From the NCBI GenBank assembly GCA_964419565.1, contig CAYQPW010000005.1:22297-86296 (forward strand): a DNA stretch of 64,000 nt. The letters run 5' to 3'. The notes below the pieces were generated by a model, which worked only from the letters and a program-made list of their open reading frames with translations, did no database searches and was not told the origin of the DNA. A program made the translations under genes and the position numbers. This DNA comes from an uncultured bacterium (lineage in GTDB: Bacteria > Hydrothermota > Tepidihabitantia > SM23-42). This document shows, piece after piece, positions 11,840 to 50,584 of the stretch (the first letter of the stretch is position 1; each line of letters begins with the position of its first letter).

Positions 11840-13699
11840 ATGGCAATTTTAAAAAGTATCAAAGGTCCTAAAGACCTCAAAGATCTAACCCTCGCGCAAC
11901 TACATGTACTCGCTCGGGAGATCAGAGAAGAAATAATAAATAGCTGTGCTCAAACCGGCGGTCATGTCGCGCCTTCACTTGGCGTAGTAGAATTGACCAT
12001 AGCATTATACCGGGCATTTGATGCGGATGTAGATAAGATCATCTGGGATGTGGGGCATCAGACTTATGCTCAGAAACTTATCACCGGTCGTTATCCGAAA
12101 TTCCACACGCTAAGAACATACAAAGGCATAAGTGGTTTTCCTAAACGGAAAGAATCTAAATATGATGTTTTCGATACCGGGCATTCATCAACTTCCTTGT
12201 CTGCTGCTACCGGCTTTGCACTGGCAAGGGATCTCAAAGGTGATAATTTCCAGATCATAAGTGTCATTGGTGACGGATCCTTGGGAGCTGGTATTGCTTT
12301 TGAAGCACTCAATCATTTGGGTCATTTAAAGAAGGATATTATCGTTATATTGAACGATAATGAACGTTCGATCGGCGATACGGTCGGTGCCTTGTCACAA
12401 TACCTGACAAGGGTTATTACAACGCGGACGTACAATCGTTTTCGCGACGACCTGTGGAAATTTCTTGGAAAATTCCCACCCTATACAAGAGACCGGAGCA
12501 GGAACCTTGCCAAGCTCCTACAAGAGGGATTAAAAGGTCTTTATGCACCCGCCGTGATCTTTGAAGAGCTTGGATTCAGATATATCGGACCGCTCAACGG
12601 GCACAAATTGGGAGAAATGATCGACACTTTTGAGCGCGTAAAAGAAATGAAAGGGCCAAGGATTATTCATGTTGTAACAAAGAAAGGCAAGGGCTTTGAA
12701 GCCGCGGAAAAATATCCTGAAGCATTTCACGGCATCGGTCCTTATTGCCCGCAAACCGGTAAAACGGAAAGCAAAGGACAATCATGGACATCAATATTCG
12801 GTGATACCGTGGTAGACCTTGCGAAGAAAAACAAGAAGATCGTTGCGATAACTGCCGGGATGTGTCTGGGTACTGGTTTAAAGAAATTTCGTGAAGAGAT
12901 CCCCGATCGTTTCTTTGATGTCGGTATTACCGAACAACATGCCATCACTATGGCCGCCGCCCTTGCCATTGAAGGATATATACCGATATGTGCGATCTAC
13001 TCGACATTTCTTCAACGAGCTTATGATCAGGTGATCCATGATGTGTGTCTGCAGGATGTACCTGTTATCTTTGCGGTTGACCGTGCTGGTCTGGTTGGTC
13101 AGGATGGTCCAACCCACCATGGTCCATTCGACCTTTCATATTTCAGATGTATACCTAATATGATCATCGGAGCACCAAAAGATGGCAGTGAATTGGTTGC
13201 GATGCTCAGAACCGCAGTGACTCAACGTGAACATCCGTTTGCAATACGTTATCCCCGAGGTGACTGTACGACGGTTGATGAAAATATCCCTCAGACTCTG
13301 CCCATCGGCAAATGGGAAGTTCTTAAAAAAGGCCGGGACATAGCAGTGATCGCGGTCGGCTCGATGGTCAAAGAAGCGCTTGGTGCCCAGGTGCTTTTAA
13401 AGAAAAAGTCGATCGATCCAATGATGATCAACGGGCGCTTTATCAAACCGCTCGACAATGAAATGCTACGGGAATTGCCAAATAGTGTTCATACGATAGT
13501 AACGGTCGAAGAAAATACGCTCAGTGGAGGTTTTGGCAGTGCGATTATGGAATACTATTCAAATACCAAAGCGCCAATAAAAGTTTACTGTATTGGCCTG
13601 CCGGATAATTTCATTGAGCATGGTGCCAGAGATATTCTTTTGGATCTGACCGGGCTCAATGCCAAGGGTATTGCCGATAAAATAGCTTCTTTTAAATGA
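11840..13699 (+). CDS. dxs: 1-deoxy-D-xylulose-5-phosphate synthase
   Basis: The N-terminus 'ILKSIKGPKDLKDL..GGHVAPSLGVVELTIALY..WDVGHQTYAQK' and the TPP-binding 'GDGSLGAG' are canonical DXS. The length is 619 aa. Confidence 0.92.
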   Translation: MAILKSIKGPKDLKDLTLAQLHVLAREIREEIINSCAQTGGHVAPSLGVVELTIALYRAFDADVDKIIWDVGHQTYAQKLITGRYPKFHTLRTYKGISGFPKRKESKYDVFDTGHSSTSLSAATGFALARDLKGDNFQIISVIGDGSLGAGIAFEALNHLGHLKKDIIVILNDNERSIGDTVGALSQYLTRVITTRTYNRFRDDLWKFLGKFPPYTRDRSRNLAKLLQEGLKGLYAPAVIFEELGFRYIGPLNGHKLGEMIDTFERVKEMKGPRIIHVVTKKGKGFEAAEKYPEAFHGIGPYCPQTGKTESKGQSWTSIFGDTVVDLAKKNKKIVAITAGMCLGTGLKKFREEIPDRFFDVGITEQHAITMAAALAIEGYIPICAIYSTFLQRAYDQVIHDVCLQDVPVIFAVDRAGLVGQDGPTHHGPFDLSYFRCIPNMIIGAPKDGSELVAMLRTAVTQREHPFAIRYPRGDCTTVDENIPQTLPIGKWEVLKKGRDIAVIAVGSMVKEALGAQVLLKKKSIDPMMINGRFIKPLDNEMLRELPNSVHTIVTVEENTLSGGFGSAIMEYYSNTKAPIKVYCIGLPDNFIEHGARDILLDLTGLNAKGIADKIASFK

Positions 13700-16600
13700 A
13701 TTTGATTCTTTCATTCATTTTATTTTCACAATTATCAACACCGTACGAAACACAGATCTTTCTCGATGCTGATGGGTCTTTTCTGGTCTATGCACGTTTT
13801 TACCAGGGTGAATTCATCGCTATCGATAGTATCGTAAGCGTTGATAAATACCTCGGTATCGGCCTTAAGGGGCACAATCGTGAAAGGCTGTTAGGTGAGC
13901 TTAAGAAGAGTCTTGTTCAACAGGGCGGTTATGCGAGTCAAGGTCTTTTTAGCACATTTGAGATACCTTTGCCAAAAGGCAGCTTCAGTGATTTTATGGG
14001 AGAAACCGGTAAGCTCGACGTCGGTGGTCATGTTAAGATCACAATCGGCGGCAGTGAGACCTTTATTTCTAACTTGCCTGAACAAAAGTTCTCCTGGCTC
14101 CCTGAGCTTGAAATGAAGCAAGAGATGTCGATAAAACTCGACGGTGAAGTCGGGGACCGGATGCGTGTTTTTATCGACCACAATTCAGAAAGGGTGAATG
14201 AGTCAGAGAATAAGATCACCGTGACATACCGGGGACATGAAGATGAGATCATTCAGGAGATCGAAGGTGGTGATACCCAGTTATCTATTCCTGCTACTAC
14301 ATATACTGGCGACATCCCTTCACACCGCGGTCTTTTTGGGATCAAATCTTCTGCCAAATTAGGGCCTTTAGACATCGTTGCGATCGCATCAAAAGAACGA
14401 ACCCAGACTCAGGAGATCGAGATCGAGGGATCAGCACAGGTCCAGTATGACACAACCTGGGCAAAGTATTTTGAACGCCGCCGGTTCTTTTTTCTAGGTA
14501 CACTTGATTCTATCGTTGAACTCAGAGTCTATCTTGATGATAATGATAACCAGAACGATAATCAGGGTATTACGTTCTTTGCCAATGCTTACCTCGACAT
14601 AAACGATGATAATATCCCGGACGATACAGTCATTCAAACGAATACCCAAAGCGGCTACTACACGCTAATGAGGGAGGGACTGAGTGATTTCTATTTGCGT
14701 GTCCCGCGTTCGAATATTATCGAATTAAACTATCAGCTGCCTGAGAATCAGGTGCTCGCGGTGTGGTATACAAAGATAAATGGCGCAGGACAGTATGACA
14801 CGGTCGGTATGATAACGGATTCTATACATAGTGATACGATGCAGCTTAAATTGATCTGTCCAGATGTCCTCGATACCCTGTCCTATACATGGAATTACGA
14901 GAAAAAGAATTATTACCAGATCGTATCACCGGGTTCTAAACTCGATTCGCTCCGGATATACTATATAACATCCGGTGGCGAACATCAAGATAACCAGGAT
15001 GGTGTATCTTATCTCCAGCTCCTCGGGCTTGACAATAACGGCGATAATCTGGTCGATGAAAACATTACTTTTTTCCAGGGTCGGGGTTTGCTTATTTTCC
15101 CGGACAGCATGCCCTTTGCCTCGAGTGCACTCGTTAATCCTGATCCTGAAATTTATACGGATCCATATATGACTGGACTCGGCGATTACTATTTATATAA
15201 AAAGACGGTTCAGGCAAAAGCTGTTTACACATTACCCGAGAATGTTGAAAAAGTAACCGTGTATATCGATGATATTGAGCAGGATTCGACGAGGGACTAT
15301 CATGTCGACTATGACGGCGGTGTCCTCGAGTTCAGAAAACCGATATTGCCGACGCAAAGGGTCAGGATCAAGGTTGAGTACTCGCCATTCTTTTCAGCTG
15401 CAGAAAAATCTCTTGTCGGAGTGCGCGGCACTTTGCGGCCTTTTGGTGAAGCCATGCTCGGTTCATCTTTCTTTTACCGCACTGAATCGTATCCCATGGA
15501 GCATGTCCGGCTAAAAGAAGAGCCGTTCAACAGGATGGTATGGGAGGCGGATTTATCCTACCCGCAGGAACTTCCGTTTGTTACCAGGGCGGTTGATTGG
15601 CTACCTTTTATTGAAACGGAAACCCCTTCGCGTTCGATCGTCAATGTTGAGGGCGCTTATTCGTTTTCTGACCTCAATGCCAAAGGTGAGGTCTTTCTCG
15701 ACGATCTTGAGTCATCAACCGTGCTCAGCAATGATTTTTCAGTTGCCAAAGTGTCCTGGTCCCTGTGTTCGAAACCGATCGAACAGGATACGGTAAATTA
15801 TGTCCAGAACCGGTTGATCTGGTATAATCTGCGCGACGATGAGGTTCTTCAGGCAGACGATATATATCAAGATCCAATAGATCCGAATGAAGCGGCTGAC
15901 GTTTTAAAGATGGTTTTTCATCCGGATCACGATGCATCATTTGGCGGTTTAACTCAATATATCTACAGTGAAGATTTTGACGATATCGAGAATCTAGAAT
16001 TGATAATCAAAGGCCGTGGTGGTATTATCCATGTTGATTTTGCGCAGGAAATAAGCGAAGATCAGCTCCGGCGTAATAAAAACGGTGAGCTTGTCGGTTA
16101 CCAGATTTTCGATGATGAAGACAGCGACAATAATAATGTATGGAATCAATTGAATGAAGATACTGGTCTTGATAATGTCTATGCGAGTGATAATGCTTAT
16201 GTCCCGGGTGCTGCTGATGACGGCAATGATGATTATGAGATCAATGATTATACTGGCGGCACCAATGGGACTGAAGGGAACAAGCTATGGGATACTGAAG
16301 ATCTGGATAGGGACGGCAATTTAAACACGAAAAACCGCTATTTCAGCTATTCAGTAGACCTTGATGATACAACTTCAGCGCGCTATGTAAATAATGCCGG
16401 GTTGATAAACGGCTGGAAGATGTTTCGTGTTTCGATCAAGGATTCAACCCAAAGAGATACGGTCACGGGGCAGCCTGACTGGCACGATATAAAATACGTC
16501 AGGATTTGGTTCAATGGTTTTAGCGAAACTGAGACCTTAATGATATATAAATTGAGTGCCACAGGCAGTCGTTGGAAGAATAAGGGCATTACTGGTGATT

Positions 16601-19101
16601 ATGCACCAAGAGATGAGGCCTTCAGCCTTAGACCGGTTAATACCAAGACTCATTCATACTACAGATCACCGTATGCTAATGAATATGATGAATTCGGGCA
16701 GGAAAAAACTGAGGGAGGCTTGGAATTCCTGCTGGAAAATATCGGCCATGACCGTACCTGCATTGCGCAGCGCAGAACTGACGAGAACGAAGACTACCGG
16801 GCATATGACACGCTGACCTTTTATATGAATGCGCACAATAGCAATCCTCTCTTGTCTATTCGAATAGGGAGTGACAGCTTGAACTATTATGAATACACAT
16901 GCCAGTATGATAATGGTGACCTGGGGTTGAATAATTATCGGCTTTTCAAAGTCACTATGCAGAACTTCATTGACCTCAAGCGTGATCGAGACCCGGACAT
17001 TGATACAGTTAGTGATTCGACCTACACCGTTGTAGGAAATCCTTCATTGTCACATAACCAGTTTTTTGAAGTCAGGATCACCAACCAGTATCTTACATTG
17101 CTTAACGATACGATCTGGTTCAATGATATCAAGCTTAAAGCACCGAAAACAGAGATCGGCAGGACATTTCGCGGTAATGGTTCGATCACTTTTGCCGACC
17201 TTGCCTCCTTGAATTTTTCGTACGATGAATCGAACGGACGTTTTAAAAGGCTGTCTGAGTCAAAAGATATATCAACGACAAGTGCGGGCAAAGGATACGC
17301 GGTAGGTGGCAATATATCAATGGATAAATTCTTGCCAACGGATTGGTACTTCAGAATTCCAGTCAGTATGAGTTACCGGAACACTATACTTGAGCCTCGA
17401 TTCTCTTACTTTTCTGATGATGTTGAACTCGAAGGTACTGATCGCGAAGAACAAGAGTCAAAGACTATAATGCGTGCATATACCGTGAGTATTTCCAAAT
17501 CGCAATCAAAGAACTGGTTCTTAAGATATACGCTTGACCGGCTTACCTTTGACCACACGCGAAACCAGACTCTGTCACGCGCGGTACTCAGTGCCGATAC
17601 TTCGGATAATATGACTTACCGGGGTTCCTATGCACTCGTTCCCAATTTGAGTTTCAAATTACTCAAGCAGAAATTCTTTCCGCTGCCGAAGAATATAAGC
17701 ATCAGTGCTTTGTATACAGACAACATGGTCAAGGCTTATCATCGCTCGAATCTTGATGATCCTTATGAACCAACTATCGGTGGTGCTCAGCACCGGAAAA
17801 CCTTGACACCGACAATATCAGTTGCATATGCACCTCATTCTATTATCAATGCGGATTATACATTTACCCAGAACCGCGATTCAGTTTTTGCCAGCAAGAG
17901 ATATGGTGAGGAAGTCGGTCGTACACAGAATTTCAATGCATCTATTTCTCCAAATCTCAAGATCGTTACGCCTCGTTTCTCATTCAATTCATCCTATAGC
18001 GAGGATCATCGTTTTGAAATACGGCAGGATCAGGATTTGCGCAATGTGTCGAATACCGGCGCTTATGGTGTTGATGGCGCGATCATGATCGGCACGATAA
18101 TAAGACTTTTTACTAGATTGAGGGATGAAACCAAAGATTCACTTTATGCTTCAGGTTCACCGGGTTGGATCGCCAGACAAGTCGAGAAATTAACCAACTA
18201 CATACAGAATGTGCAATTCAATTATCGCCGTCAGAGTAGTTCTGATTATCTCAATGTCAAGTCAAGACCGGTCATCGATTACCAGTGGGGGCTGGTGGAT
18301 TCAATCCCGCCTGAGGATGTTGCCCCGGGCAGTTTCCCGGGACGGGGTAATACAGATACTTATGGTCTGTCATCTGGTATGACTTATAAGTTTCTCAGTG
18401 CCAATGGCAGGTATAGTGGTACGATCAATCGAACATTTAATTATGGCGGAGGGCAAACTAGAACAGAGAATGTATCATACCCGGATCTGAATGTCCGCAT
18501 TCAGAAACTTGAATCCCTGCCTTTTCTGAAAAAATGGTGTCGTAATTCATCGATATCCGGGAATTTTGGTCAAACATATGAAAAACGTTATGATATAGCT
18601 GCGGATTCGTTGACTGGCGAATTGGTTTCAGACTCCAAAACCCTGAATTTGTCGCCTTTGGCAAGCTGGCAAGCAAACTGGATCAAAGGGATATCTACAA
18701 CTATTGAAGCAAATTACTCAGAGACAAATAGCAATGAATATGCAGGCGGCGCAACGCCTGTTCAGTCAAAAATGATAATGCGCGGCGGATCAGCAAGTTT
18801 TGGCTATACTTTCAGTGCCCCGGGCGGGATAAATTTACCGCTGCTTAAGGGCATAAGATTTTCTTCCAACCTTTCTATAAGTTTGAGTGTAAATTACAGC
18901 CGTACAACTAACTTTTTCACCGATCTTCTCGTACCCGCGACAAATACAAGCACCTTGAGTTCAAGCGTCGGATTGTCATACAACTTCTCTTCATCAGTGA
19001 CCGGCGGCGGGAATTTCGATTATTCCCAAAATGACGATATGAATAGTGATCAGAATACGCGAAGGGTTGGTTTGAACGCCTGGGTGAATATCAACTTTTA
19101 A
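13696..19101 (+). CDS. Giant (1801 aa) secreted outer-membrane beta-barrel-type protein. It is a candidate T9SS translocon (SprA/Sov-like)
   Basis: It has a signal peptide and a composition rich in D/N/S/T/Y. Alternating hydrophobic beta-strand patterns run throughout, and it ends in Phe ('..LNAWVNINF') like an OMP beta-signal. An acidic DxDxDG-like calcium-binding-type segment sits at ~aa 800-880. Its size, and a context of six T9SS cargo genes, suggest SprA. It is translationally coupled to dxs (ATGA). Confidence 0.4.
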   Translation: MNLILSFILFSQLSTPYETQIFLDADGSFLVYARFYQGEFIAIDSIVSVDKYLGIGLKGHNRERLLGELKKSLVQQGGYASQGLFSTFEIPLPKGSFSDFMGETGKLDVGGHVKITIGGSETFISNLPEQKFSWLPELEMKQEMSIKLDGEVGDRMRVFIDHNSERVNESENKITVTYRGHEDEIIQEIEGGDTQLSIPATTYTGDIPSHRGLFGIKSSAKLGPLDIVAIASKERTQTQEIEIEGSAQVQYDTTWAKYFERRRFFFLGTLDSIVELRVYLDDNDNQNDNQGITFFANAYLDINDDNIPDDTVIQTNTQSGYYTLMREGLSDFYLRVPRSNIIELNYQLPENQVLAVWYTKINGAGQYDTVGMITDSIHSDTMQLKLICPDVLDTLSYTWNYEKKNYYQIVSPGSKLDSLRIYYITSGGEHQDNQDGVSYLQLLGLDNNGDNLVDENITFFQGRGLLIFPDSMPFASSALVNPDPEIYTDPYMTGLGDYYLYKKTVQAKAVYTLPENVEKVTVYIDDIEQDSTRDYHVDYDGGVLEFRKPILPTQRVRIKVEYSPFFSAAEKSLVGVRGTLRPFGEAMLGSSFFYRTESYPMEHVRLKEEPFNRMVWEADLSYPQELPFVTRAVDWLPFIETETPSRSIVNVEGAYSFSDLNAKGEVFLDDLESSTVLSNDFSVAKVSWSLCSKPIEQDTVNYVQNRLIWYNLRDDEVLQADDIYQDPIDPNEAADVLKMVFHPDHDASFGGLTQYIYSEDFDDIENLELIIKGRGGIIHVDFAQEISEDQLRRNKNGELVGYQIFDDEDSDNNNVWNQLNEDTGLDNVYASDNAYVPGAADDGNDDYEINDYTGGTNGTEGNKLWDTEDLDRDGNLNTKNRYFSYSVDLDDTTSARYVNNAGLINGWKMFRVSIKDSTQRDTVTGQPDWHDIKYVRIWFNGFSETETLMIYKLSATGSRWKNKGITGDYAPRDEAFSLRPVNTKTHSYYRSPYANEYDEFGQEKTEGGLEFLLENIGHDRTCIAQRRTDENEDYRAYDTLTFYMNAHNSNPLLSIRIGSDSLNYYEYTCQYDNGDLGLNNYRLFKVTMQNFIDLKRDRDPDIDTVSDSTYTVVGNPSLSHNQFFEVRITNQYLTLLNDTIWFNDIKLKAPKTEIGRTFRGNGSITFADLASLNFSYDESNGRFKRLSESKDISTTSAGKGYAVGGNISMDKFLPTDWYFRIPVSMSYRNTILEPRFSYFSDDVELEGTDREEQESKTIMRAYTVSISKSQSKNWFLRYTLDRLTFDHTRNQTLSRAVLSADTSDNMTYRGSYALVPNLSFKLLKQKFFPLPKNISISALYTDNMVKAYHRSNLDDPYEPTIGGAQHRKTLTPTISVAYAPHSIINADYTFTQNRDSVFASKRYGEEVGRTQNFNASISPNLKIVTPRFSFNSSYSEDHRFEIRQDQDLRNVSNTGAYGVDGAIMIGTIIRLFTRLRDETKDSLYASGSPGWIARQVEKLTNYIQNVQFNYRRQSSSDYLNVKSRPVIDYQWGLVDSIPPEDVAPGSFPGRGNTDTYGLSSGMTYKFLSANGRYSGTINRTFNYGGGQTRTENVSYPDLNVRIQKLESLPFLKKWCRNSSISGNFGQTYEKRYDIAADSLTGELVSDSKTLNLSPLASWQANWIKGISTTIEANYSETNSNEYAGGATPVQSKMIMRGGSASFGYTFSAPGGINLPLLKGIRFSSNLSISLSVNYSRTTNFFTDLLVPATNTSTLSSSVGLSYNFSSSVTGGGNFDYSQNDDMNSDQNTRRVGLNAWVNINF

Positions 19102-22243: not shown

Positions 22244-22633
22244 ATGAACTTACCTTATGGCGAAATCAAGGATAAAATCCTGCAAATTAAATTTTCCACA
22301 GCAGATTTTTCGATCGCTGCGGTGCTCAGTGCAGTCAAAGTCCACCTTGATGTAATCGAGGAGATGGGAGTTATTTTTCTTGGTGCTCAAACTGATATCG
22401 TTGCTGGTCCTACTCCGGTATTTCAGCCGGTTCCGGTCATTGCCCAGTTCGAATATACGGGAAAAGGAGCGAGCAAAGATATCCTTGAGAAAGTGTACAG
22501 GATTGTGTGGCAGGGGATCGTGAGTTCATTCCCTGATGAGACGAAATGGTCAGAAGCAAAAGAGGCATATGCTTCATTTATCGCAGCACAGGCTGACCTG
22601 CTGAGAGCACGTATCGAAGCATCTAAAGAATGA
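22244..22633 (+). CDS. Hypothetical 129-aa protein. It is the first gene of the putative operon with the Cys/His-repeat protein and rSAM/SPASM
   Basis: It has its own promoter-like TTGACT-16-TAGAAT and a strong GGAGG RBS 6 nt before the ATG. The protein contains no Cys. Confidence 0.5.
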   Translation: MNLPYGEIKDKILQIKFSTADFSIAAVLSAVKVHLDVIEEMGVIFLGAQTDIVAGPTPVFQPVPVIAQFEYTGKGASKDILEKVYRIVWQGIVSSFPDETKWSEAKEAYASFIAAQADLLRARIEASKE

Positions 22634-22690: not shown

Positions 22691-24199
22691 ATGATGTGTA
22701 GTTTTCTTATACTAACACTGCTGTCATTATCAGCTGACCTTCGCTGGGTAGAGGTTGATGTCTCGTTGTGGCAAGATGGTCGGGCAGATTTTGTATATAA
22801 AGTCCGCTGGCATGTCCCTTCTGGGACCATGAGTGGGTTCTATTTTCAGGAACAAACGGTCGTTCCTTATTTTGATTTTGATGATGCCTATGCGATCGAT
22901 GAATCTGGTACGAGGTACCCTCTTGAGATAAAAGATCTCGGCAATCAATACGATATAATCCTTGCCCGGGGAAAGAGGTTTGGTCCGGGCGAGATAACAT
23001 ATATTTTCCATTATGGCGGCGATCTTGGCCAAAGCGGTAATCTCGCTAAAACGGCGAGTGAATTCGGTGATCTTGTTGTCTTCCATTGGGCACCGACTCA
23101 ATGGGATGAGCCGCTTGAACACTATACGGTCTATGTCTACTATCCGATAACGGTCCCGGGTGAAGATGTTGACCCTGATGATTACGGATTTCGGACTGAA
23201 AAGTTCATGAATGAGAATTATTTGCTTTCATACTTTGGTCAGCCATACAAGGGCGAAACCTTTTTTACGGTTCGTATACATAAAAATAATGTAGACACCA
23301 AAGAGAAAATACTCATTCAGCAGTACGTGCCAGCTGAGTATTTTGAAACCGAAAAGTTCGGCACCATTGAGATCATACCAGAAAGTCAAAAGAGATTTTC
23401 TTTTCCCTTTGAAGTACTCTGGATGATACTGTATGTCGTCCCTTATATATTCTTCAATAACAAGAAAGCAAAGCGCATAAAGGGAGCATACAGTGATGTT
23501 GCCAGTCTCAAATGGCTGCGCGACGACTGGGTACCACCAAAGCTCGAAGTGGCTACTTTCCGTAAATCTGGTAAGGTCGCTAAACTCGATCTCATTGAGG
23601 CCGCTTTATTGCTAGATTATCCAGTCAACAAAGTGCTGACCATATTAGCATATAAACTGCAGGATAATGGTCTGCTCGATATCACATCACGTCAGCCCAT
23701 GAAGATAAAGATTCTCAAGAGACCGACTGGATTGCGGTATTATGAAACAGGTTTTCTTGATGCCGTGAAATCCGACGGGACATTAGATGAAGCGGGTCTC
23801 AAAGCATTGATAACTCAGGTCGTCGAAAAGATATCTGCCAAATCCTGGGATTGTGACATAAAGGCGACAAAACTCTATTATGAAGAGAAAATAGGAAGTC
23901 CTTCTCCAGATATCGATCCAGAATACAATAAATCTGAATATTATGATTATCTGTCAGGACGCTCGTTTGCCAGACAGGGATATTTTAATGAAACAGAATC
24001 CGCTTTTGTCGTGTATGGGGCACCGATTAAAAGTTATTCTGCATTCGTGGCTTCTGATGCCTGTCACAGTGCTTGTTATGTACATACTGCCTGCCATGAC
24101 GCTTGTCATTCGGCATGCCATTCAGCCTGTCACTCGGCATGCCATTCAGCCTGCCACTCGGCGTGCCATTCAGCCTGCGTGAGCGGAGGAGCGCATTAA
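22691..24199 (+). CDS. Bitopic membrane protein (DUF2207-like layout) ending in a periodic (A-C-H-S)n Cys/His-repeat tail
   Basis: It has an N-terminal signal/anchor and a central TM ('FEVLWMILYVVPYIFF'). The C-terminus is 'DACHSACYVHTACHDACHSACHSACHSACHSACHSACHSACVSGGAH'. The N-terminal domain 'VDVSLWQDGRADFVYKVRWHVPSG..GFYF' resembles the DUF2207 start. Confidence 0.7.
   Translation: MMCSFLILTLLSLSADLRWVEVDVSLWQDGRADFVYKVRWHVPSGTMSGFYFQEQTVVPYFDFDDAYAIDESGTRYPLEIKDLGNQYDIILARGKRFGPGEITYIFHYGGDLGQSGNLAKTASEFGDLVVFHWAPTQWDEPLEHYTVYVYYPITVPGEDVDPDDYGFRTEKFMNENYLLSYFGQPYKGETFFTVRIHKNNVDTKEKILIQQYVPAEYFETEKFGTIEIIPESQKRFSFPFEVLWMILYVVPYIFFNNKKAKRIKGAYSDVASLKWLRDDWVPPKLEVATFRKSGKVAKLDLIEAALLLDYPVNKVLTILAYKLQDNGLLDITSRQPMKIKILKRPTGLRYYETGFLDAVKSDGTLDEAGLKALITQVVEKISAKSWDCDIKATKLYYEEKIGSPSPDIDPEYNKSEYYDYLSGRSFARQGYFNETESAFVVYGAPIKSYSAFVASDACHSACYVHTACHDACHSACHSACHSACHSACHSACHSACVSGGAH
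24101..24178 (+). repeat. In-frame 24-nt tandem DNA repeat (about 3 units, 'gcatgccattcagcctgtcactcg') encoding (ACHS)2 per unit
   Basis: There are three consecutive near-identical 24-mers at 24113-24184. Confidence 0.8.
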
Positions 24200-25560
24200 T
24201 GACATTCGAGATTTCAGATTCAGGATTTAAGAATTCCAAAGGAAATATTATCGAAGACGAACGACGATTTACGGATACGAGTTTTAATATCACCTGGGTC
24301 GATGAGTTTGTTGAAAAAATTAAGCCTTATGTCTTTGTGCGTGAGTTCGATAAGCTTTTGATCTTAATACCTAACCAGGCATATAAACTCAATGATGCTG
24401 GTGTTAGCACGCTTGATTTTCTGTTTAAGGGTCATTCGATCGAGGAGTTTCTAAATATTGTTGGTGATAATTCAGAGAAAAGAGAACAGCTGCATTATTT
24501 CTTCTGTGATCTCAGGGCAGCAGTGAACGGCTGCTTACGTGAGGACGAAAACCGTCAAGCTGTGTCTTATTATGAATTCAGCGGCGCATTTACAGAATAT
24601 CCGGTACTATCGGAGATCGCGGTCACTTATCGATGTAATTTAAAATGCGATTTCTGCTATGTTGGCGATCGTGATTATAATGAACTCAAGACGAGCGATA
24701 TGAAAAAGCTGCTCTTTAAGATATTAAAAGAAGCAAGGGTACCTTCAGTCAGTTTTACCGGAGGTGAACCACTGCTGCGTCAGGATATCGGTTTCCTCGT
24801 TGAATATGCACATGATCTCGGTCTCTGGACTAACCTCATTACCAATGGTACGCTTCTGGATATTGATAAAGTAACCGAGTTGAAAACCAGCGGTCTTTCG
24901 AGTGCTCAGGTCAGTATCGAAGGGCCAGACCCTAATATACACGACAGGATAACCGGGGTTACTGGATCATTCAACGCGACCGTTAAAGGAATTAAATCGT
25001 TACAAAAAGCAGGTATCCCGGTGCATACCAATACGACAGTTTCGCGAAACAACATCGATGAACTCATAGATATTCTCTTATTGATCAAAAGTATCGGTTT
25101 GAATCGCCTGTCAATGAACCTGCTCATCCCGTGCGGTGCCGCACGCCATAGAGAGGATATCTGGGTTTCATATTCAGAGATCGGCGATCATATACTAAAA
25201 GTAAAGCGGCGCGCTGACCAGGAGGGAATAAAATTCCTGTGGTATTCTCCCATACCGATGTGCAAATTCAACCCGGTCGCTTATGGATTTGGCAATAAAT
25301 CTTGTGCCGCGATCACTGGATTGTTGAGTCTCGATCCGATGGGGAATATCATACCATGCTCATCATGGCGAAAGCCTGTGGCATCACTTTTGAAAAGGAG
25401 ATTCCAGGACATATGGCAGTCTTCGGTATTGAGTTTTTTCAAGAATATCGAGTATGCTCCGGACGAGTGCCATGAATGCCTTGAGTTTGATATCTGCAAA
25501 GGAGCATGTCCTCTGTATTGGGCGGCTCAGGGTAAAGAGGAGCTCGATGACCGAACATAA
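24199..25560 (+). CDS. Radical SAM/SPASM-domain peptide-modifying enzyme with an N-terminal PqqD-like RRE domain
   Basis: 'AVTYRCNLKCDFCYVG' is the CxxxCxxC motif, and 'SFTGGEPLL' is present. The C-terminal SPASM cysteines are 'CAAITG..CSSW..CHEC..CKGAC'. The N-terminal ~140 aa '..LLILIPNQAYKLNDAGVSTLDFL.KGHSIEEFLNIV' fits the PqqD/RRE pattern. The start overlaps the upstream stop as TAATG, with GGAGG 8 nt upstream. Confidence 0.8.
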   Translation: MTFEISDSGFKNSKGNIIEDERRFTDTSFNITWVDEFVEKIKPYVFVREFDKLLILIPNQAYKLNDAGVSTLDFLFKGHSIEEFLNIVGDNSEKREQLHYFFCDLRAAVNGCLREDENRQAVSYYEFSGAFTEYPVLSEIAVTYRCNLKCDFCYVGDRDYNELKTSDMKKLLFKILKEARVPSVSFTGGEPLLRQDIGFLVEYAHDLGLWTNLITNGTLLDIDKVTELKTSGLSSAQVSIEGPDPNIHDRITGVTGSFNATVKGIKSLQKAGIPVHTNTTVSRNNIDELIDILLLIKSIGLNRLSMNLLIPCGAARHREDIWVSYSEIGDHILKVKRRADQEGIKFLWYSPIPMCKFNPVAYGFGNKSCAAITGLLSLDPMGNIIPCSSWRKPVASLLKRRFQDIWQSSVLSFFKNIEYAPDECHECLEFDICKGACPLYWAAQGKEELDDRT

Positions 25561-26461
25561 GTCATATCTTGTCTTCAATGAGATAAGTCCCAAATTACGG
25601 ACCCTGGTATCGGTTTTTTTGATCGGCGTCGGTTTTTTATTACAGCTTACCACGAGAAATATACTCGCTGGAATGCCTTTTATTGTCGGCTGTCTGGTCA
25701 TAAATCTTTTGAGAGGCATCTCAGTCAAGCAGGTCAGCGCGAAAAAATTGACTTGGCAAGAAGTGACCCCGGCAAAGATCGACCAGGTTCTCCAACAGTG
25801 TAAGCGCATAAAGAAGTTTCGCAGCAACGATGCCGGTTGTCTTATCGGTGTCATTGTCTTGCTCATCTTTGGGTTTTCCTTTGGTATACCGCTGATCGCA
25901 CTGGTCGTACGTTTAAATTTCGCATTTGTGGCAGCCGTCGTGAATGCGATAATACTCTTTGGAGGTCTGGCTTTTAGCGGACGCAGGAGTGCCTGGATGC
26001 CCAAAGCTTTGGATATCAAAACGGAAATAGTGAAACGTATGATCGGGTCAGCGATCATTAAAAAGTACCCCAAAACTCAGGTCATTCCATACCTTGAGGT
26101 TGGTGAAAGTGGCGAGGGTTCATTTCCTAATGATGCACGACTTATGGTCAGGTTCAGGGATGCACCAAAGGATTTCATCGGACTGCAGGGACAGATATCA
26201 ATAAACTCAGTTAAAGGCCGTCCATATCCTTATTTCTATGTTGTTCTTATTGCCAAACACTCATTCGATATTCTGAAAAAATTCGGCAAGCAGTCATTTG
26301 AAAAACTTGTCGTGGAACGTAAAGAGACGAGCGAGGTTGATGTGATCGTCATTAGACAGCGCACCACAAAAACCTCGGGTTACCATACTGATACCGCGGT
26401 TCAGGATTATACGCTGGATACCGGTTTAAAAGCCGTTAAGAATTTGCTGGAAGAATCCTGA
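25546..26461 (+). CDS. Membrane protein (4-5 TM at the N-terminus plus a C-terminal soluble domain), function unknown, in the rSAM locus
   Basis: There are hydrophobic helices 'LVSVFLIGVGFLL', 'MPFIVGCLVINLL' and 'LIGVIVLLIFGFSFGIPLIALVV'. The start 'MTEHKSY' overlaps the rSAM stop. Confidence 0.5.
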
Positions 26462-48886: not shown

Positions 48887-50584
48887 ATGAAAACATGTAG
48901 AGTATTAATCGTATATTCAATAATGATTGCAGCATCTTCAGCACAGTCGCCGGGTGATATAATCGGCTACACGTGGTATGAGTTCCAGGCAAATGGTTCG
49001 TATGGGCAGCGGATTGATGTCGATGATTTACGACAAGCACATATTGTCTGGACCAAGATGGATGCTGCTGCTACAACCCGTTATGTCGCATGGAACCTTC
49101 GGTATTCAGATGGTTCTTATTATGGTGAAACTCAGGCTTCTCCTTCCTGGAGCGGTTATGTCCAGATGGATATTACACGCGACCTGGATCCATACATGCA
49201 AAGAACAGTGATCGTTTACAACTATAATCCGGGTACTGATTATTATTCATGGATTGATATTGATGCAGGTAATGGTTGGGGATCATGGCCCAATACACCT
49301 GGAACACCTGGTATGCCTGGCCATATTTGGCCATATATAGCAGTCGCGAACAATAATAATTTTGTCTTAGCGACTGGTGATAAGGGTGGGAATATGCACC
49401 ATATATATGTTAGTATATACGAAGGGGTGACATGGCTATATATTGCTGGTTTTGATTCTTGTGCAACGTTATCGCAGTTTGTGCGGGCATCAGAAAAACG
49501 TGATACAAACAAAGCAGCTTTTGTCCATACTCAGTTCATCACCGATACTATTGCTGGCGGTCAACTAGACAATGATGTTTATCATAGGATCTCTGATGAT
49601 GGTGGTATTACCTGGGGACCGCATACGAATATTACTGATTATCAGCCTTCTGATTCGGTCCGCGCTTACAATAACGTCAATGCGGTATTTGATGATAATG
49701 ACTATCTCCATATTGTCTGGGCTGGGAGAAAAGTAGACAGTGCTAATTATTATCAGGCTTCGAAGATATTTCATTGGGACGAGTTCAATGATACGATAAC
49801 TGTAGTAAATAGCCCGAGTATTTATTATAATGAACCCGGGGGCTGGTGGATTGAAGGCTCTGCTGGCAACTTTAGCGCCTCGTACATGCCAGCTGATCAA
49901 CCACAGGTTGTATTCGACACGACAACGAGCTTTCTCTATTGTCTGTGGCATGGTAATGATGATACGACTGATGTTTCAGCGGCTGGTTTCTTCAATGGTG
50001 AATTATATGGCGCTTATTCGACTGATTACGGTATTACCTGGTCTGATTATGTTAATCTAACGAATACACGTTCACCTGGCGCTGGTTCTGGTTATTGTTA
50101 TGATGAGGATTATATGACTGCTTGTCCTAAAGTAGTGACAGATTCAATATTTGTTACTTATATTGAAGACAAGGATGCTGGTGCCTATGTTCATAACGAA
50201 GGTGTGAAAACTGAAAATCCAGTACGCTGCTGGGTATTCTGGACCGGGTTGATCAGGACCGGGCTAGAGGAAGAACATGCTTTAACACCCGAATTCCAAG
50301 AGCCAAGTTTGAATATAAATCCAAATCCTTTTGTAAAATCGGTCATGATCGATTTTAGCATAGGGCAAAGTGCTAAGGGCATGGGGCATGATGCAGAGGG
50401 CATAGAGCTAAGAATTTATGATGCGACCGGGAGGGTGGTGAAATCAATTACTCAGTTACATAATTACCCAGTTACATGGTCTGGTGACGACGAGACTGGC
50501 AACAAACTTCCAGCCGGTGTCTACTTTATCGAACTCATTAGTGGAGATAATATAATTTCAAAAAAGGTGATCAAGCTAAAATAA
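48887..50584 (+). CDS. T9SS-sorted BNR-repeat (sialidase/glycoside-hydrolase-like) secreted protein
   Basis: BNR motifs 'SDDGGITWGP' and 'STDYGITWSD' are present. There is a signal peptide with the 'ASSA|Q' site, and the C-terminus is 'GVYFIELISGDNIISKKVIKLK'. Confidence 0.65.
   Translation: MKTCRVLIVYSIMIAASSAQSPGDIIGYTWYEFQANGSYGQRIDVDDLRQAHIVWTKMDAAATTRYVAWNLRYSDGSYYGETQASPSWSGYVQMDITRDLDPYMQRTVIVYNYNPGTDYYSWIDIDAGNGWGSWPNTPGTPGMPGHIWPYIAVANNNNFVLATGDKGGNMHHIYVSIYEGVTWLYIAGFDSCATLSQFVRASEKRDTNKAAFVHTQFITDTIAGGQLDNDVYHRISDDGGITWGPHTNITDYQPSDSVRAYNNVNAVFDDNDYLHIVWAGRKVDSANYYQASKIFHWDEFNDTITVVNSPSIYYNEPGGWWIEGSAGNFSASYMPADQPQVVFDTTTSFLYCLWHGNDDTTDVSAAGFFNGELYGAYSTDYGITWSDYVNLTNTRSPGAGSGYCYDEDYMTACPKVVTDSIFVTYIEDKDAGAYVHNEGVKTENPVRCWVFWTGLIRTGLEEEHALTPEFQEPSLNINPNPFVKSVMIDFSIGQSAKGMGHDAEGIELRIYDATGRVVKSITQLHNYPVTWSGDDETGNKLPAGVYFIELISGDNIISKKVIKLK

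What the first reader, a model, noticed from the sequence alone, without database searches (positions are those of the whole stretch)
24044..24199. The Cys/His tail is encoded by a 24-nt tandem repeat, so its length may vary
The (ACHS) units are encoded by about 3 near-perfect 24-nt DNA repeats plus degenerate flanking copies. Units therefore remain in frame on expansion or contraction. Perfect tandem repeats of this kind are prone to slippage or recombination, so tail length could differ between strains. This is also the place where assemblies most often collapse repeats.
Basis: seen in the sequence. Interest (0 to 1): 0.5.

Follow-up and report, generated by a model that had tools for sequence, protein, structure and literature searches.

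The report
Fixed-length Cys/His tail, radical-SAM target
The 24-base repeat is real, but it encodes a Cys/His tail whose sequence and unit number are held constant in related bacteria; the tail sits on a membrane protein and is probably chemically modified by the radical SAM enzyme encoded next to it.

Summary
Observation confirmed. Window 24104-24177 holds 3.1 copies of a 24-nt unit at 94% match, in frame. Each unit encodes two ACHS units at the end of ORF 22691-24199 (tail: ACHS ACYVHT ACHD (ACHS)x6 ACVSGGAH).

The interpretation (length may vary) is only partly supported.
- Against: thirteen relatives at 67-92% protein identity carry the same 46-residue tail with the same unit count, apart from terminal substitutions in two. 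They differ at 16-38 mostly synonymous bases per 138 nt. The exact window protein occurs on 6 contigs.
- For: across 215 family tails the CH-unit count runs 2-11, but 80% have 7-9.
- For: one pair of contigs with identical flanks differs by exactly 2x24 nt. This is either an assembly collapse or real slippage.
- For: several contigs end inside the repeat.

What is really there is the C-terminal tail of a DUF2207-like single-pass membrane protein. It heads a conserved three-gene cassette: target, radical SAM/SPASM enzyme whose start overlaps the target's stop (TAATG), and a 4-TM protein. The cassette occurs in at least 120 species, bacteria and Asgard archaea.

The tail is most likely the enzyme's substrate; the chemistry is unknown. 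The nearest described kind is the 'Cxxx-repeat radical SAM target' (TIGR04117/PF27846), whose score thresholds this family does not meet.

The parts
24104..24177 (+). 24-nt tandem DNA repeat, 3.1 copies. Each copy encodes two ACHS units.
   Evidence: TRF: period 24, 94% matches, score 127. The codon-shuffle test gives P about 0.0004 for lag-24 exceeding lag-12 identity.
24059..24196 (+). Coding region of the 46-residue Cys/His tail, ACHS ACYVHT ACHD (ACHS)x6 ACVSGGAH (10 Cys, 10 His).
   Evidence: Translation. The tail has the same amino-acid sequence in 13 relatives of 67-92% identity, except terminal substitutions in L018 and L020. Family-wide unit logo: C 100%, +1 H 92%, +2 S 75%/D 15%, +3 A 94%.
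22691..24199 (+). Target protein, 502 aa. It has a signal-like N-terminus, an extracytoplasmic beta-sandwich (about residues 14-214), one TM helix (about 236-271), a cytoplasmic winged-helix/helical region, and then the Cys/His tail.
24199..25560 (+). Radical SAM/SPASM enzyme, 453 aa. Its start ATG overlaps the target's TAA stop (TAATG). The N-terminal ~135 aa look like a PqqD-type peptide-recognition domain.
   Evidence: PF04055 at 4e-28 and PF13186 SPASM. CX3CX2C at residues 146/150/153 and CX2CX5CX3C at 424-437. No NCBIfam family reaches its cutoff; the best is 151 bits against 500. Nearest solved structures are SkfB, PqqE, SuiB and CteB. An N-terminal profile weakly hits TfuB1 and PqqD.
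25547..26461 (+). Third cassette gene, 304 aa as called in public assemblies (a longer ORF starts at 25454). It has four N-terminal TM helices and a cytoplasmic alpha/beta domain.

Best explanation
The 24-nt DNA repeat is the coding image of a peptide repeat, (A-C-H-S/D)n, whose sequence and unit number are under strong purifying selection. It forms the cytoplasmic C-terminal tail of a single-pass, DUF2207-like membrane protein.

The tail is most likely the substrate of the radical SAM/SPASM enzyme encoded immediately downstream, whose start codon overlaps the target's stop. The enzyme would recognise it through an N-terminal PqqD-like domain and modify the Cys-containing units one after another. 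The most probable chemistry is Cys sulfur-to-carbon (thioether) cross-links or another Cys-directed modification. The product would be a defined, possibly metal-binding, structure of fixed length. The third gene, a 4-TM protein with a chaperone-like cytoplasmic domain, probably holds or presents the tail at the membrane.

At the DNA level the array does turn over by 24-nt duplication, deletion or conversion, but selection restores or keeps the count. Length therefore changes only slowly between lineages.

Shown: the repeat, its conservation, the cassette, the enzyme's motifs, and the topology prediction. Inferred: that the tail is the substrate, the chemistry, and the role of the third protein.
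For: Constraint on the tail:
- The 46-aa tail has the same sequence and unit count in 13 relatives at 67-92% identity, apart from terminal substitutions in two. They show 16-38 mostly synonymous differences per 138 nt.
- The family-wide CH-unit count peaks at 7-9 in 171 of 215 tails.
- In pairs with 65-95% body identity, about 85% share the same count.

DNA turnover:
- Within-array lag-24 identity is 0.92 (window), 0.94 (L009), 0.96 (L020) and 0.88 (L011). Identity between orthologous positions in different lineages is about 0.80. The phase of the codon alternation differs between lineages.

Cassette:
- The order target, rSAM/SPASM, 4-TM protein holds in every sufficiently long related locus.
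- An rSAM lies within the locus in 81 of 91 genome loci, and directly downstream in 71.
- The TAATG overlap is visible in the sequence.

Enzyme:
- It has canonical rSAM and SPASM cysteine motifs.
- The closest solved relatives are the peptide maturases SkfB, PqqE, SuiB and CteB.
- The conserved N-terminal domain weakly matches the PqqD-type domains TfuB1, 5sxy and 3g2b.

Topology:
- One TM segment followed by a Lys/Arg cluster places the tail in the cytoplasm, where rSAM enzymes act.

Breadth:
- At least 120 species, including Chloroflexota, Spirochaetota, Planctomycetota, Myxococcales, Omnitrophota, Thorarchaeota and the cultured Desulfobulbus alkaliphilus DSM 24258.
- About 600 clusters at 50% identity with E<=1e-10.
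Against: - No experiment or paper links this tail to the enzyme; six literature searches found nothing. The substrate relation rests on gene neighbourhood.
- Ten of 91 genome loci show no rSAM in the stretch held, though most of these are cut short or have another gene order.
- The PqqD-like match is weak (E 0.014-0.36), and Pfam's own models do not hit the N-terminus.
- The variable residue of the unit (+2: S/D/N/G/H) is the natural acceptor candidate, yet it is the least conserved position. So thioether chemistry is a guess.
- A Cys/His array could bind metal without any modification.
- Short alleles that appear real exist: 3 units on 14 contigs. The count is therefore not absolutely required.
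Confidence: 0.65

Rival explanations
1. This is a strain-variable (contingency-like) coding repeat. The 24-nt units slip frequently, so tail length differs between strains and tunes function.
For: - The array has 3.1 near-perfect copies.
- The family-wide count ranges from 2 to 11.
- L006 and L020 have identical flanks and differ by 2x24 nt.
- There are signs of within-array homogenisation.
Against: - Thirteen lineages at 67-92% identity have exactly the same count and peptide, despite near-saturated synonymous change.
- Independent assemblies of the window's organism are identical.
- The longest exact repeat in the window is 20 nt.
- None of roughly 100 complete tails in species-representative genomes has fewer than 7 CH units.
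Confidence: 0.08
2. The tail is an unmodified metal-binding or Fe-S-binding Cys/His array, for example five Cys2His2-type sites from 10 Cys and 10 His. The neighbouring radical SAM enzyme acts on something else.
For: - Cys and His numbers are equal, in a strict C-H dipeptide every four residues.
- The fixed count suits a fixed number of sites.
- In one relative a NifU-like gene follows the cassette.
Against: - The link with an rSAM/SPASM enzyme is tight and conserved from bacteria to archaea, and the two genes overlap at their stop and start codons.
- The enzyme carries a conserved N-terminal extension resembling peptide-recognition domains.
- Its nearest solved relatives are peptide maturases.
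Confidence: 0.2
3. The repeat count in the window is an assembly artefact: collapsed or expanded relative to the true genome.
For: Collapse probably happens in this family. Examples are L006 versus L020 and contigs that end inside the repeat.
Against: - The window's tail matches, residue for residue, 11 of 13 independently assembled relatives that use different codons; the other two differ only by substitutions at the tail's ends.
- The same DNA is found in separate assemblies.
- The longest exact repeat is 20 nt, below usual assembly k-mer sizes.
Confidence: 0.02

Closest known systems
Cys-Xaa-Xaa-Xaa repeat radical SAM target protein (NCBIfam TIGR04117 'Syntroph_Cxxx'; Pfam PF27846 'tSAM_targ_Cxxx_rpt')
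   Same: Both have C-terminal repeats with Cys every fourth residue, encoded next to a radical SAM/SPASM enzyme. Some relatives of the window protein carry weak precomputed PF27846 hits.
   Different: The TIGR04117 model is only 98 positions long and is typed 'paralog'; from memory, its members are small soluble peptides in Firmicutes. Here the repeat ends a 500-900 aa membrane protein and has a strict A-C-H-S/D unit and a CVSGG end. The window protein gets no NCBIfam hit at E<=0.01. Relative P0036 scores 16 bits against a cutoff of 50.
Ranthipeptide/sactipeptide systems (SCIFF-CteB, freyrasin PapA-PapB, SkfA-SkfB)
   Same: These use an rSAM/SPASM maturase with an N-terminal recognition domain acting on a Cys-rich sequence. 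From memory, PapB makes one thioether per repeated Cys motif. SkfB and CteB are among the nearest solved structures.
   Different: Those substrates are short secreted peptides with leader, protease and exporter. Here the 'leader' would be a whole membrane protein, and no protease or exporter is in the cassette. PapB scores 80 bits against 340, and StsB 98 against 625. The chemistry here is untested.
QhpC/QhpD of quinohemoprotein amine dehydrogenase (from memory)
   Same: This is a precedent for an rSAM/SPASM enzyme installing several Cys thioether cross-links in a functional protein subunit rather than in an exported peptide.
   Different: QhpC is a small periplasmic subunit without tandem units. 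I did not test any sequence relation to it here.
ACGX-repeat peptide system (TIGR04340 rSAM)
   Same: From memory, it has four-residue A-C-x-x units next to an rSAM/SPASM enzyme.
   Different: The window's enzyme scores 75.9 bits against a cutoff of 400 for TIGR04340. The unit here is A-C-H-S/D, not A-C-G-x.
DUF2207 membrane proteins (PF09972)
   Same: Same overall build: an extracytoplasmic N-terminal beta-sandwich, a TM segment, and a low-complexity C-terminal tail. The sequence match is weak.
   Different: The match is below the Pfam threshold, 18.3 bits against 24.4. From memory, typical DUF2207 tails are Gly-rich rather than Cys/His repeats. No paper in the library mentions DUF2207 together with radical SAM.
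Simple-sequence contingency loci and in-frame coding minisatellites
   Same: An in-frame tandem DNA repeat that can in principle gain or lose units by slippage.
   Different: Only 3 imperfect copies are present, and no count polymorphism is seen among close relatives.

Membership tests
Cxxx-repeat radical SAM target (TIGR04117 / PF27846) | Protein scores above the family's HMM cutoff | tested here: not met
   The window protein has no NCBIfam family at E<=0.01. Relative P0036 scores 16.2 bits against a cutoff of 50. PF27846 is not in the local Pfam copy; it is on record for 16 of the 95 homologs and is marked 'weak' in the one case where a strength is given, P0016.
Cxxx-repeat radical SAM target (TIGR04117 / PF27846) | C-terminal repeats with Cys at every fourth residue | tested here: met
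   1222 of 1411 Cys-Cys spacings in 160 distinct tails equal 4. The window has 8 of its 9 Cys-Cys intervals at spacing 4.
Cxxx-repeat radical SAM target (TIGR04117 / PF27846) | Encoded next to a radical SAM/SPASM enzyme | tested here: met
   TAATG overlap in the window. An rSAM lies in 81 of 91 genome loci, directly downstream in 71.
Cxxx-repeat radical SAM target (TIGR04117 / PF27846) | Partner enzyme belongs to the CXXX-repeat peptide maturase family (TIGR04115, recalled from memory) | tested here: inconclusive
   TIGR04115 is not among the 25 best NCBIfam hits, so it scores below about 76 bits. No family reaches its cutoff. Its exact score is not visible.
RiPP-type rSAM/SPASM maturase (sacti/ranthipeptide-like) | CX3CX2C radical SAM motif plus a SPASM domain with the CX2CX5CX3C auxiliary-cluster motif | tested here: met
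   Cys 146/150/153 and Cys 424/427/433/437, with further Cys at 355, 369 and 387. PF04055 and PF13186 both score above threshold.
RiPP-type rSAM/SPASM maturase (sacti/ranthipeptide-like) | N-terminal PqqD-like peptide recognition element | tested here: inconclusive
   A conserved ~120-aa N-terminal domain is present in 41 diverse orthologs. Its profile hits TfuB1 (E 0.014) and PqqD 5sxy and 3g2b (E 0.19, 0.36) among the top 8. No PqqD hit appears in Pfam.
RiPP-type rSAM/SPASM maturase (sacti/ranthipeptide-like) | Short precursor peptide with leader and core, plus protease and/or exporter | tested here: not met
   The substrate candidate is a 502-aa membrane protein. The neighbours are a 4-TM protein with no family match, a TPR protein and housekeeping genes.
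RiPP-type rSAM/SPASM maturase (sacti/ranthipeptide-like) | Thioether (S-C) cross-links in the product | not testable with these tools
   This needs mass spectrometry or NMR of the modified tail.
Strain-variable coding tandem repeat (contingency-like locus) | Long perfect tandem copies | tested here: not met
   There are 3.1 copies at 94% match. The longest exact internal repeat is 20 nt.
Strain-variable coding tandem repeat (contingency-like locus) | Different copy numbers among close relatives or strains | tested here: not met
   The count is the same in 13 relatives at 67-92% identity and in separate assemblies of the same organism. The one exception in the clade is L006 versus L020, which may be an assembly collapse.
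DUF2207 (PF09972) | N-terminal domain scores above the Pfam gathering threshold | tested here: not met
   18.3 bits against 24.4. Relatives score 16.8-19.8 bits. Three of the 95 homologs (P0013, P0029, P0079, P0082 among those listed) carry precomputed PF09972 hits.

The most novel reading that the evidence does not exclude
The tail is a new kind of protein-embedded, RiPP-like modification. A membrane receptor-like protein carries a genetically fixed array of about ten Cys-His units. A dedicated radical SAM/SPASM enzyme converts the array into a cross-linked or heterocycle-bearing metal-binding rod of defined length. The system is conserved from WOR-3 bacteria to Asgard archaea, and its chemistry does not match any characterised maturase.
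Probability: 0.3. Interest if true: 0.75.

Novelty: new variant of a known kind. Interest (0 to 1): 0.45.

Why it matters
As a repeat-instability finding it is ordinary. The tract is stable in this lineage, and the main practical lesson is that assemblies of relatives with longer perfect repeats can collapse or break there.

The tail itself is more interesting. It marks an uncharacterised but widespread three-gene cassette: at least 120 species and about 600 protein clusters at 50% identity, spread over many bacterial phyla and Asgard archaea. In it a radical SAM/SPASM enzyme appears to act on the tail of a large membrane protein rather than on a small secreted peptide.

The perfect conservation of a 10-Cys/10-His array, and of its length, gives a clear hypothesis that can be tested in the laboratory. 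A cultured carrier exists, Desulfobulbus alkaliphilus DSM 24258.

Tried and rejected
- A genome scan with the 51-sequence protein alignment failed because it had no conserved stretch. I replaced it with a degenerate DNA pattern for ACHxACHxACVS.
- The cluster look-up of the window protein found nothing, because the exact sequence is not in that table. So no >90%-identity variants could be listed that way.
- Six literature searches found no paper on this tail or cassette. The terms were: DUF2207 with radical SAM; CXXX repeat; Cys-Xaa-Xaa-Xaa; SPASM with Cys-rich tail; the literal strings ACHSACHS and similar; and SPASM genome mining.
- NCBIfam, Pfam and PDB sequence searches gave nothing for the target's cytoplasmic region or for the third protein.
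- I considered reading CHSACH as overlapping CX3CH heme-c attachment sites, prompted by AhbD and NirJ being the top rSAM hits. I rejected it for three reasons. The tail is predicted to be cytoplasmic. Adjacent motifs would share cysteines. The AhbD score is far below its cutoff (151 bits against 500).
- I considered an anSME-like formylglycine reaction and rejected it. From memory the anSME motif is C/S-x-P/A-x-R, and the tail has no such motif.

Full report
**1. The observation.**
Tandem Repeats Finder reports one array at 24104-24177: period 24, 3.1 copies, 94% matches, no indels, score 127. A weaker 12-nt reading covers the same tract. It is the only sizeable tandem array in the window.

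The array lies in frame at the 3' end of ORF 22691-24199, 502 aa. Read by codons, the tail is ACHS ACYVHT ACHD (ACHS)x6 ACVSGGAH, encoded by 24059-24196. Successive ACHS units alternate between GCA TGC CAT TCA and GCC TGT CAC TCG. This is why the DNA period is 24 while the peptide period is 4 residues.

The 24-nt periodicity is not a trivial consequence of the peptide repeat. Lag-24 identity is 0.92 against 0.72 at lag 12. When the codons actually used are permuted among units, only 0.04% of shuffles reach that difference.

**2. Does the length vary?**
The exact 502-aa protein is encoded on 6 contigs. Two of them, from different sources, were aligned with the window and are base-identical across the tail.

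A scan of metagenome contigs returned relatives at 67-90% protein identity (L009-L018, L020). Look-ups through the third gene added a 92% relative (L150, an NCBI MAG) and an 85% one (L151/L152).

All 13 relatives have the same 46-residue tail with the same unit count. Eleven are identical to the window residue for residue. L018 ends in R instead of H. L020 begins with S and has S at the penultimate position. Eleven of these tails were compared base by base and differ from one another at 16-38 of 138 bases, nearly all synonymous.

That pattern shows purifying selection on both sequence and unit number.

**3. The family as a whole.**
A protein search found 95 homologs, nearly all ending in (ACH[SD])n ACVSGGxx or close variants. 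They include:
- Chloroflexota, Spirochaetota and Planctomycetota
- Myxococcales, Acidobacteria and Omnitrophota
- Aminicenantes, Gemmatimonadales and Gammaproteobacteria
- Thorarchaeota
- the cultured Desulfobulbus alkaliphilus DSM 24258

A profile search of 1.84 billion representative proteins gives 602 clusters at E<=1e-10.

Over 215 complete tails the number of CH units runs from 2 to 11, but 171 have 7-9. Among pairs whose non-tail regions are 65-95% identical, about 85% share the same count. The share falls to 19-45% below 65% identity. So the count does evolve, but slowly.

All tails with 6 or fewer units come from the protein database, mostly from contigs of a few kb. The only such tails among the genome loci are on contigs cut inside the repeat, plus L062, which duplicates P0018 on a 2-kb contig.

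At least one short allele looks real. P0024 has 3 units on 14 contigs; the six retrieved, from several samples and sources, have identical DNA and an intact cassette.

**4. Assembly collapse.**
L006 is a 2-kb contig from sample Ga0315289. L020 is a 154-kb contig from sample Ga0315288. They are identical over the ~1.9 kb upstream of the repeat and the ~95 nt downstream of it, and differ only by 48 nt. That is exactly two copies of a perfect 24-nt unit. L020 contains a 44-nt exact internal repeat, against only 20 nt in the window.

This is either a collapsed assembly or a very recent slippage event. The data here cannot tell which.

Several contigs end inside the repeat: L013, L028, L090, L096 and L127. 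The partial proteins P0006, P0062 and P0087 also end there. The window's own count is safe, because it agrees with 13 relatives that use different codons.

**5. Signs of DNA turnover at constant length.**
In the window, L009, L011 and L020, units 24 nt apart are more alike (0.88-0.96) than orthologous positions are between lineages (about 0.80). The other lineages show no 24-nt periodicity. The phase of the CAT-TCx / CAC-TCG alternation also differs between lineages.

This suggests occasional duplication, deletion or conversion in 24-nt steps, with selection keeping six ACHS units. It is an inference, not a demonstration.

**6. What the tail belongs to.**

The next gene starts at the A of the TAA stop (TAATG). 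It encodes a 453-aa radical SAM/SPASM protein with CX3CX2C at residues 146-153 and CX2CX5CX3C at 424-437. No NCBIfam family reaches its cutoff; the best is AhbD at 151 bits against 500. Its nearest solved relatives are the peptide maturases SkfB, PqqE, SuiB and CteB.

The enzyme's ~135-aa N-terminal extension is conserved across 41 diverse orthologs. As a profile it weakly hits three PqqD-type recognition domains among its top eight PDB matches: TfuB1 at E 0.014, 5sxy and 3g2b.

The three genes travel together in every related locus long enough to show it. In Thorarchaeota and some bacteria the gene order differs. The surrounding genes are housekeeping: DXP synthase, polyprenyl synthase, a SprA-like protein, PEPCK.

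**7. How it most likely works.**
The conserved link, the overlapping stop and start codons, the cytoplasmic location, the recognition-like domain and the maturase-like relatives all point one way: the tail is the enzyme's substrate. The strict unit also fits an enzyme that treats each unit alike. Cys is invariant, His follows it in 92% of units, Ala precedes the next Cys in 94%, and the position between is S in 75% and D in 15%.

The chemistry is not determined. From general knowledge of SPASM maturases, thioether cross-linking is the commonest outcome with Cys-rich substrates, so I rank it first but with low confidence.

A rival view is an unmodified metal-binding array, since the tail has 10 Cys and 10 His. 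I rate that at about 0.2.

**8. Comparison with what is known.**
The concept of a 'Cys-Xaa-Xaa-Xaa repeat radical SAM target' exists as NCBIfam TIGR04117 and Pfam PF27846. Some relatives carry precomputed PF27846 hits. The window protein has no NCBIfam hit, and a relative scores 16 bits against a cutoff of 50. Membership is therefore not met.

The architecture here is a large membrane protein rather than a ~98-residue peptide, and the unit is different. I found no publication on it. I file it as a new variant of a known kind.

**9. Verdict.**
The 'length may vary' interpretation is partly supported: it holds over long evolutionary distances and as an assembly hazard, but not for strains of this lineage. 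The real content of the site is a fixed-length tail, probably modified by a radical SAM enzyme, in a widespread uncharacterised cassette.

Noticed in passing
window 22244-22633 (+): A 129-aa gene with no Pfam or NCBIfam match sits just upstream of the target. It is syntenic at 57-90% identity in all WOR-3-clade relatives, but not in distant cassettes. It may be a clade-specific accessory gene or simply conserved synteny.
   Followed up: partly
L144 7308-7704: In the groundwater relative with the 3-unit tail, a NifU-like Fe-S scaffold gene directly follows the three-gene cassette.
   Followed up: no
L013, L028, L090, L096, L127 (contig ends); L136 2322-2421: Five contigs terminate inside the Cys/His repeat. 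In L136 a 100-N scaffold gap lies about 170 nt after the tail, and no rSAM follows it. These are signs that assemblers struggle at this tract.
   Followed up: partly
P0004 tail (ACHSACPSACHSACPSACVSGGAD): A His-to-Pro change appears in two units eight residues apart. This is what copying a mutated 24-nt unit would give. It could also be a sequencing error.
   Followed up: no
P0088/P0092, P0093/P0094, P0320 tails: Variant tails exist. Examples are extra CDSSCDSCHSS units, a CACACACAGGGW end in Promethearchaeota proteins, and an HSACVH-type unit that lacks the Cys-His dipeptide.
   Followed up: no
window 24182-24196 (residues 498-502 of the target): In the AF2 model the last residues (VSGGAH) have much higher confidence than the repeat itself (10-residue block means 66 and 93, against 42-46) and form a beta-bridge. 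The conserved C-terminal end may dock onto a folded domain. No coordinates were available to check the partner.
   Followed up: no
L026, L119, L125, L134 (Thorarchaeota); L034, L101, L127: Gene order varies. In Thorarchaeota the rSAM lies upstream on the opposite strand. In some bacteria the third gene sits between target and rSAM.
   Followed up: partly
window 50446-50477: A 16-nt unit (AATTACCCAGTTACAT) occurs twice in tandem at 93% match.
   Followed up: no
window 13696-19101 (+): An 1801-aa ORF has a SprA_N (gliding/type IX secretion) match. The neighbours DXP synthase, polyprenyl synthase, M28 peptidase and PEPCK indicate a core chromosomal region of a WOR-3-like bacterium.
   Followed up: no
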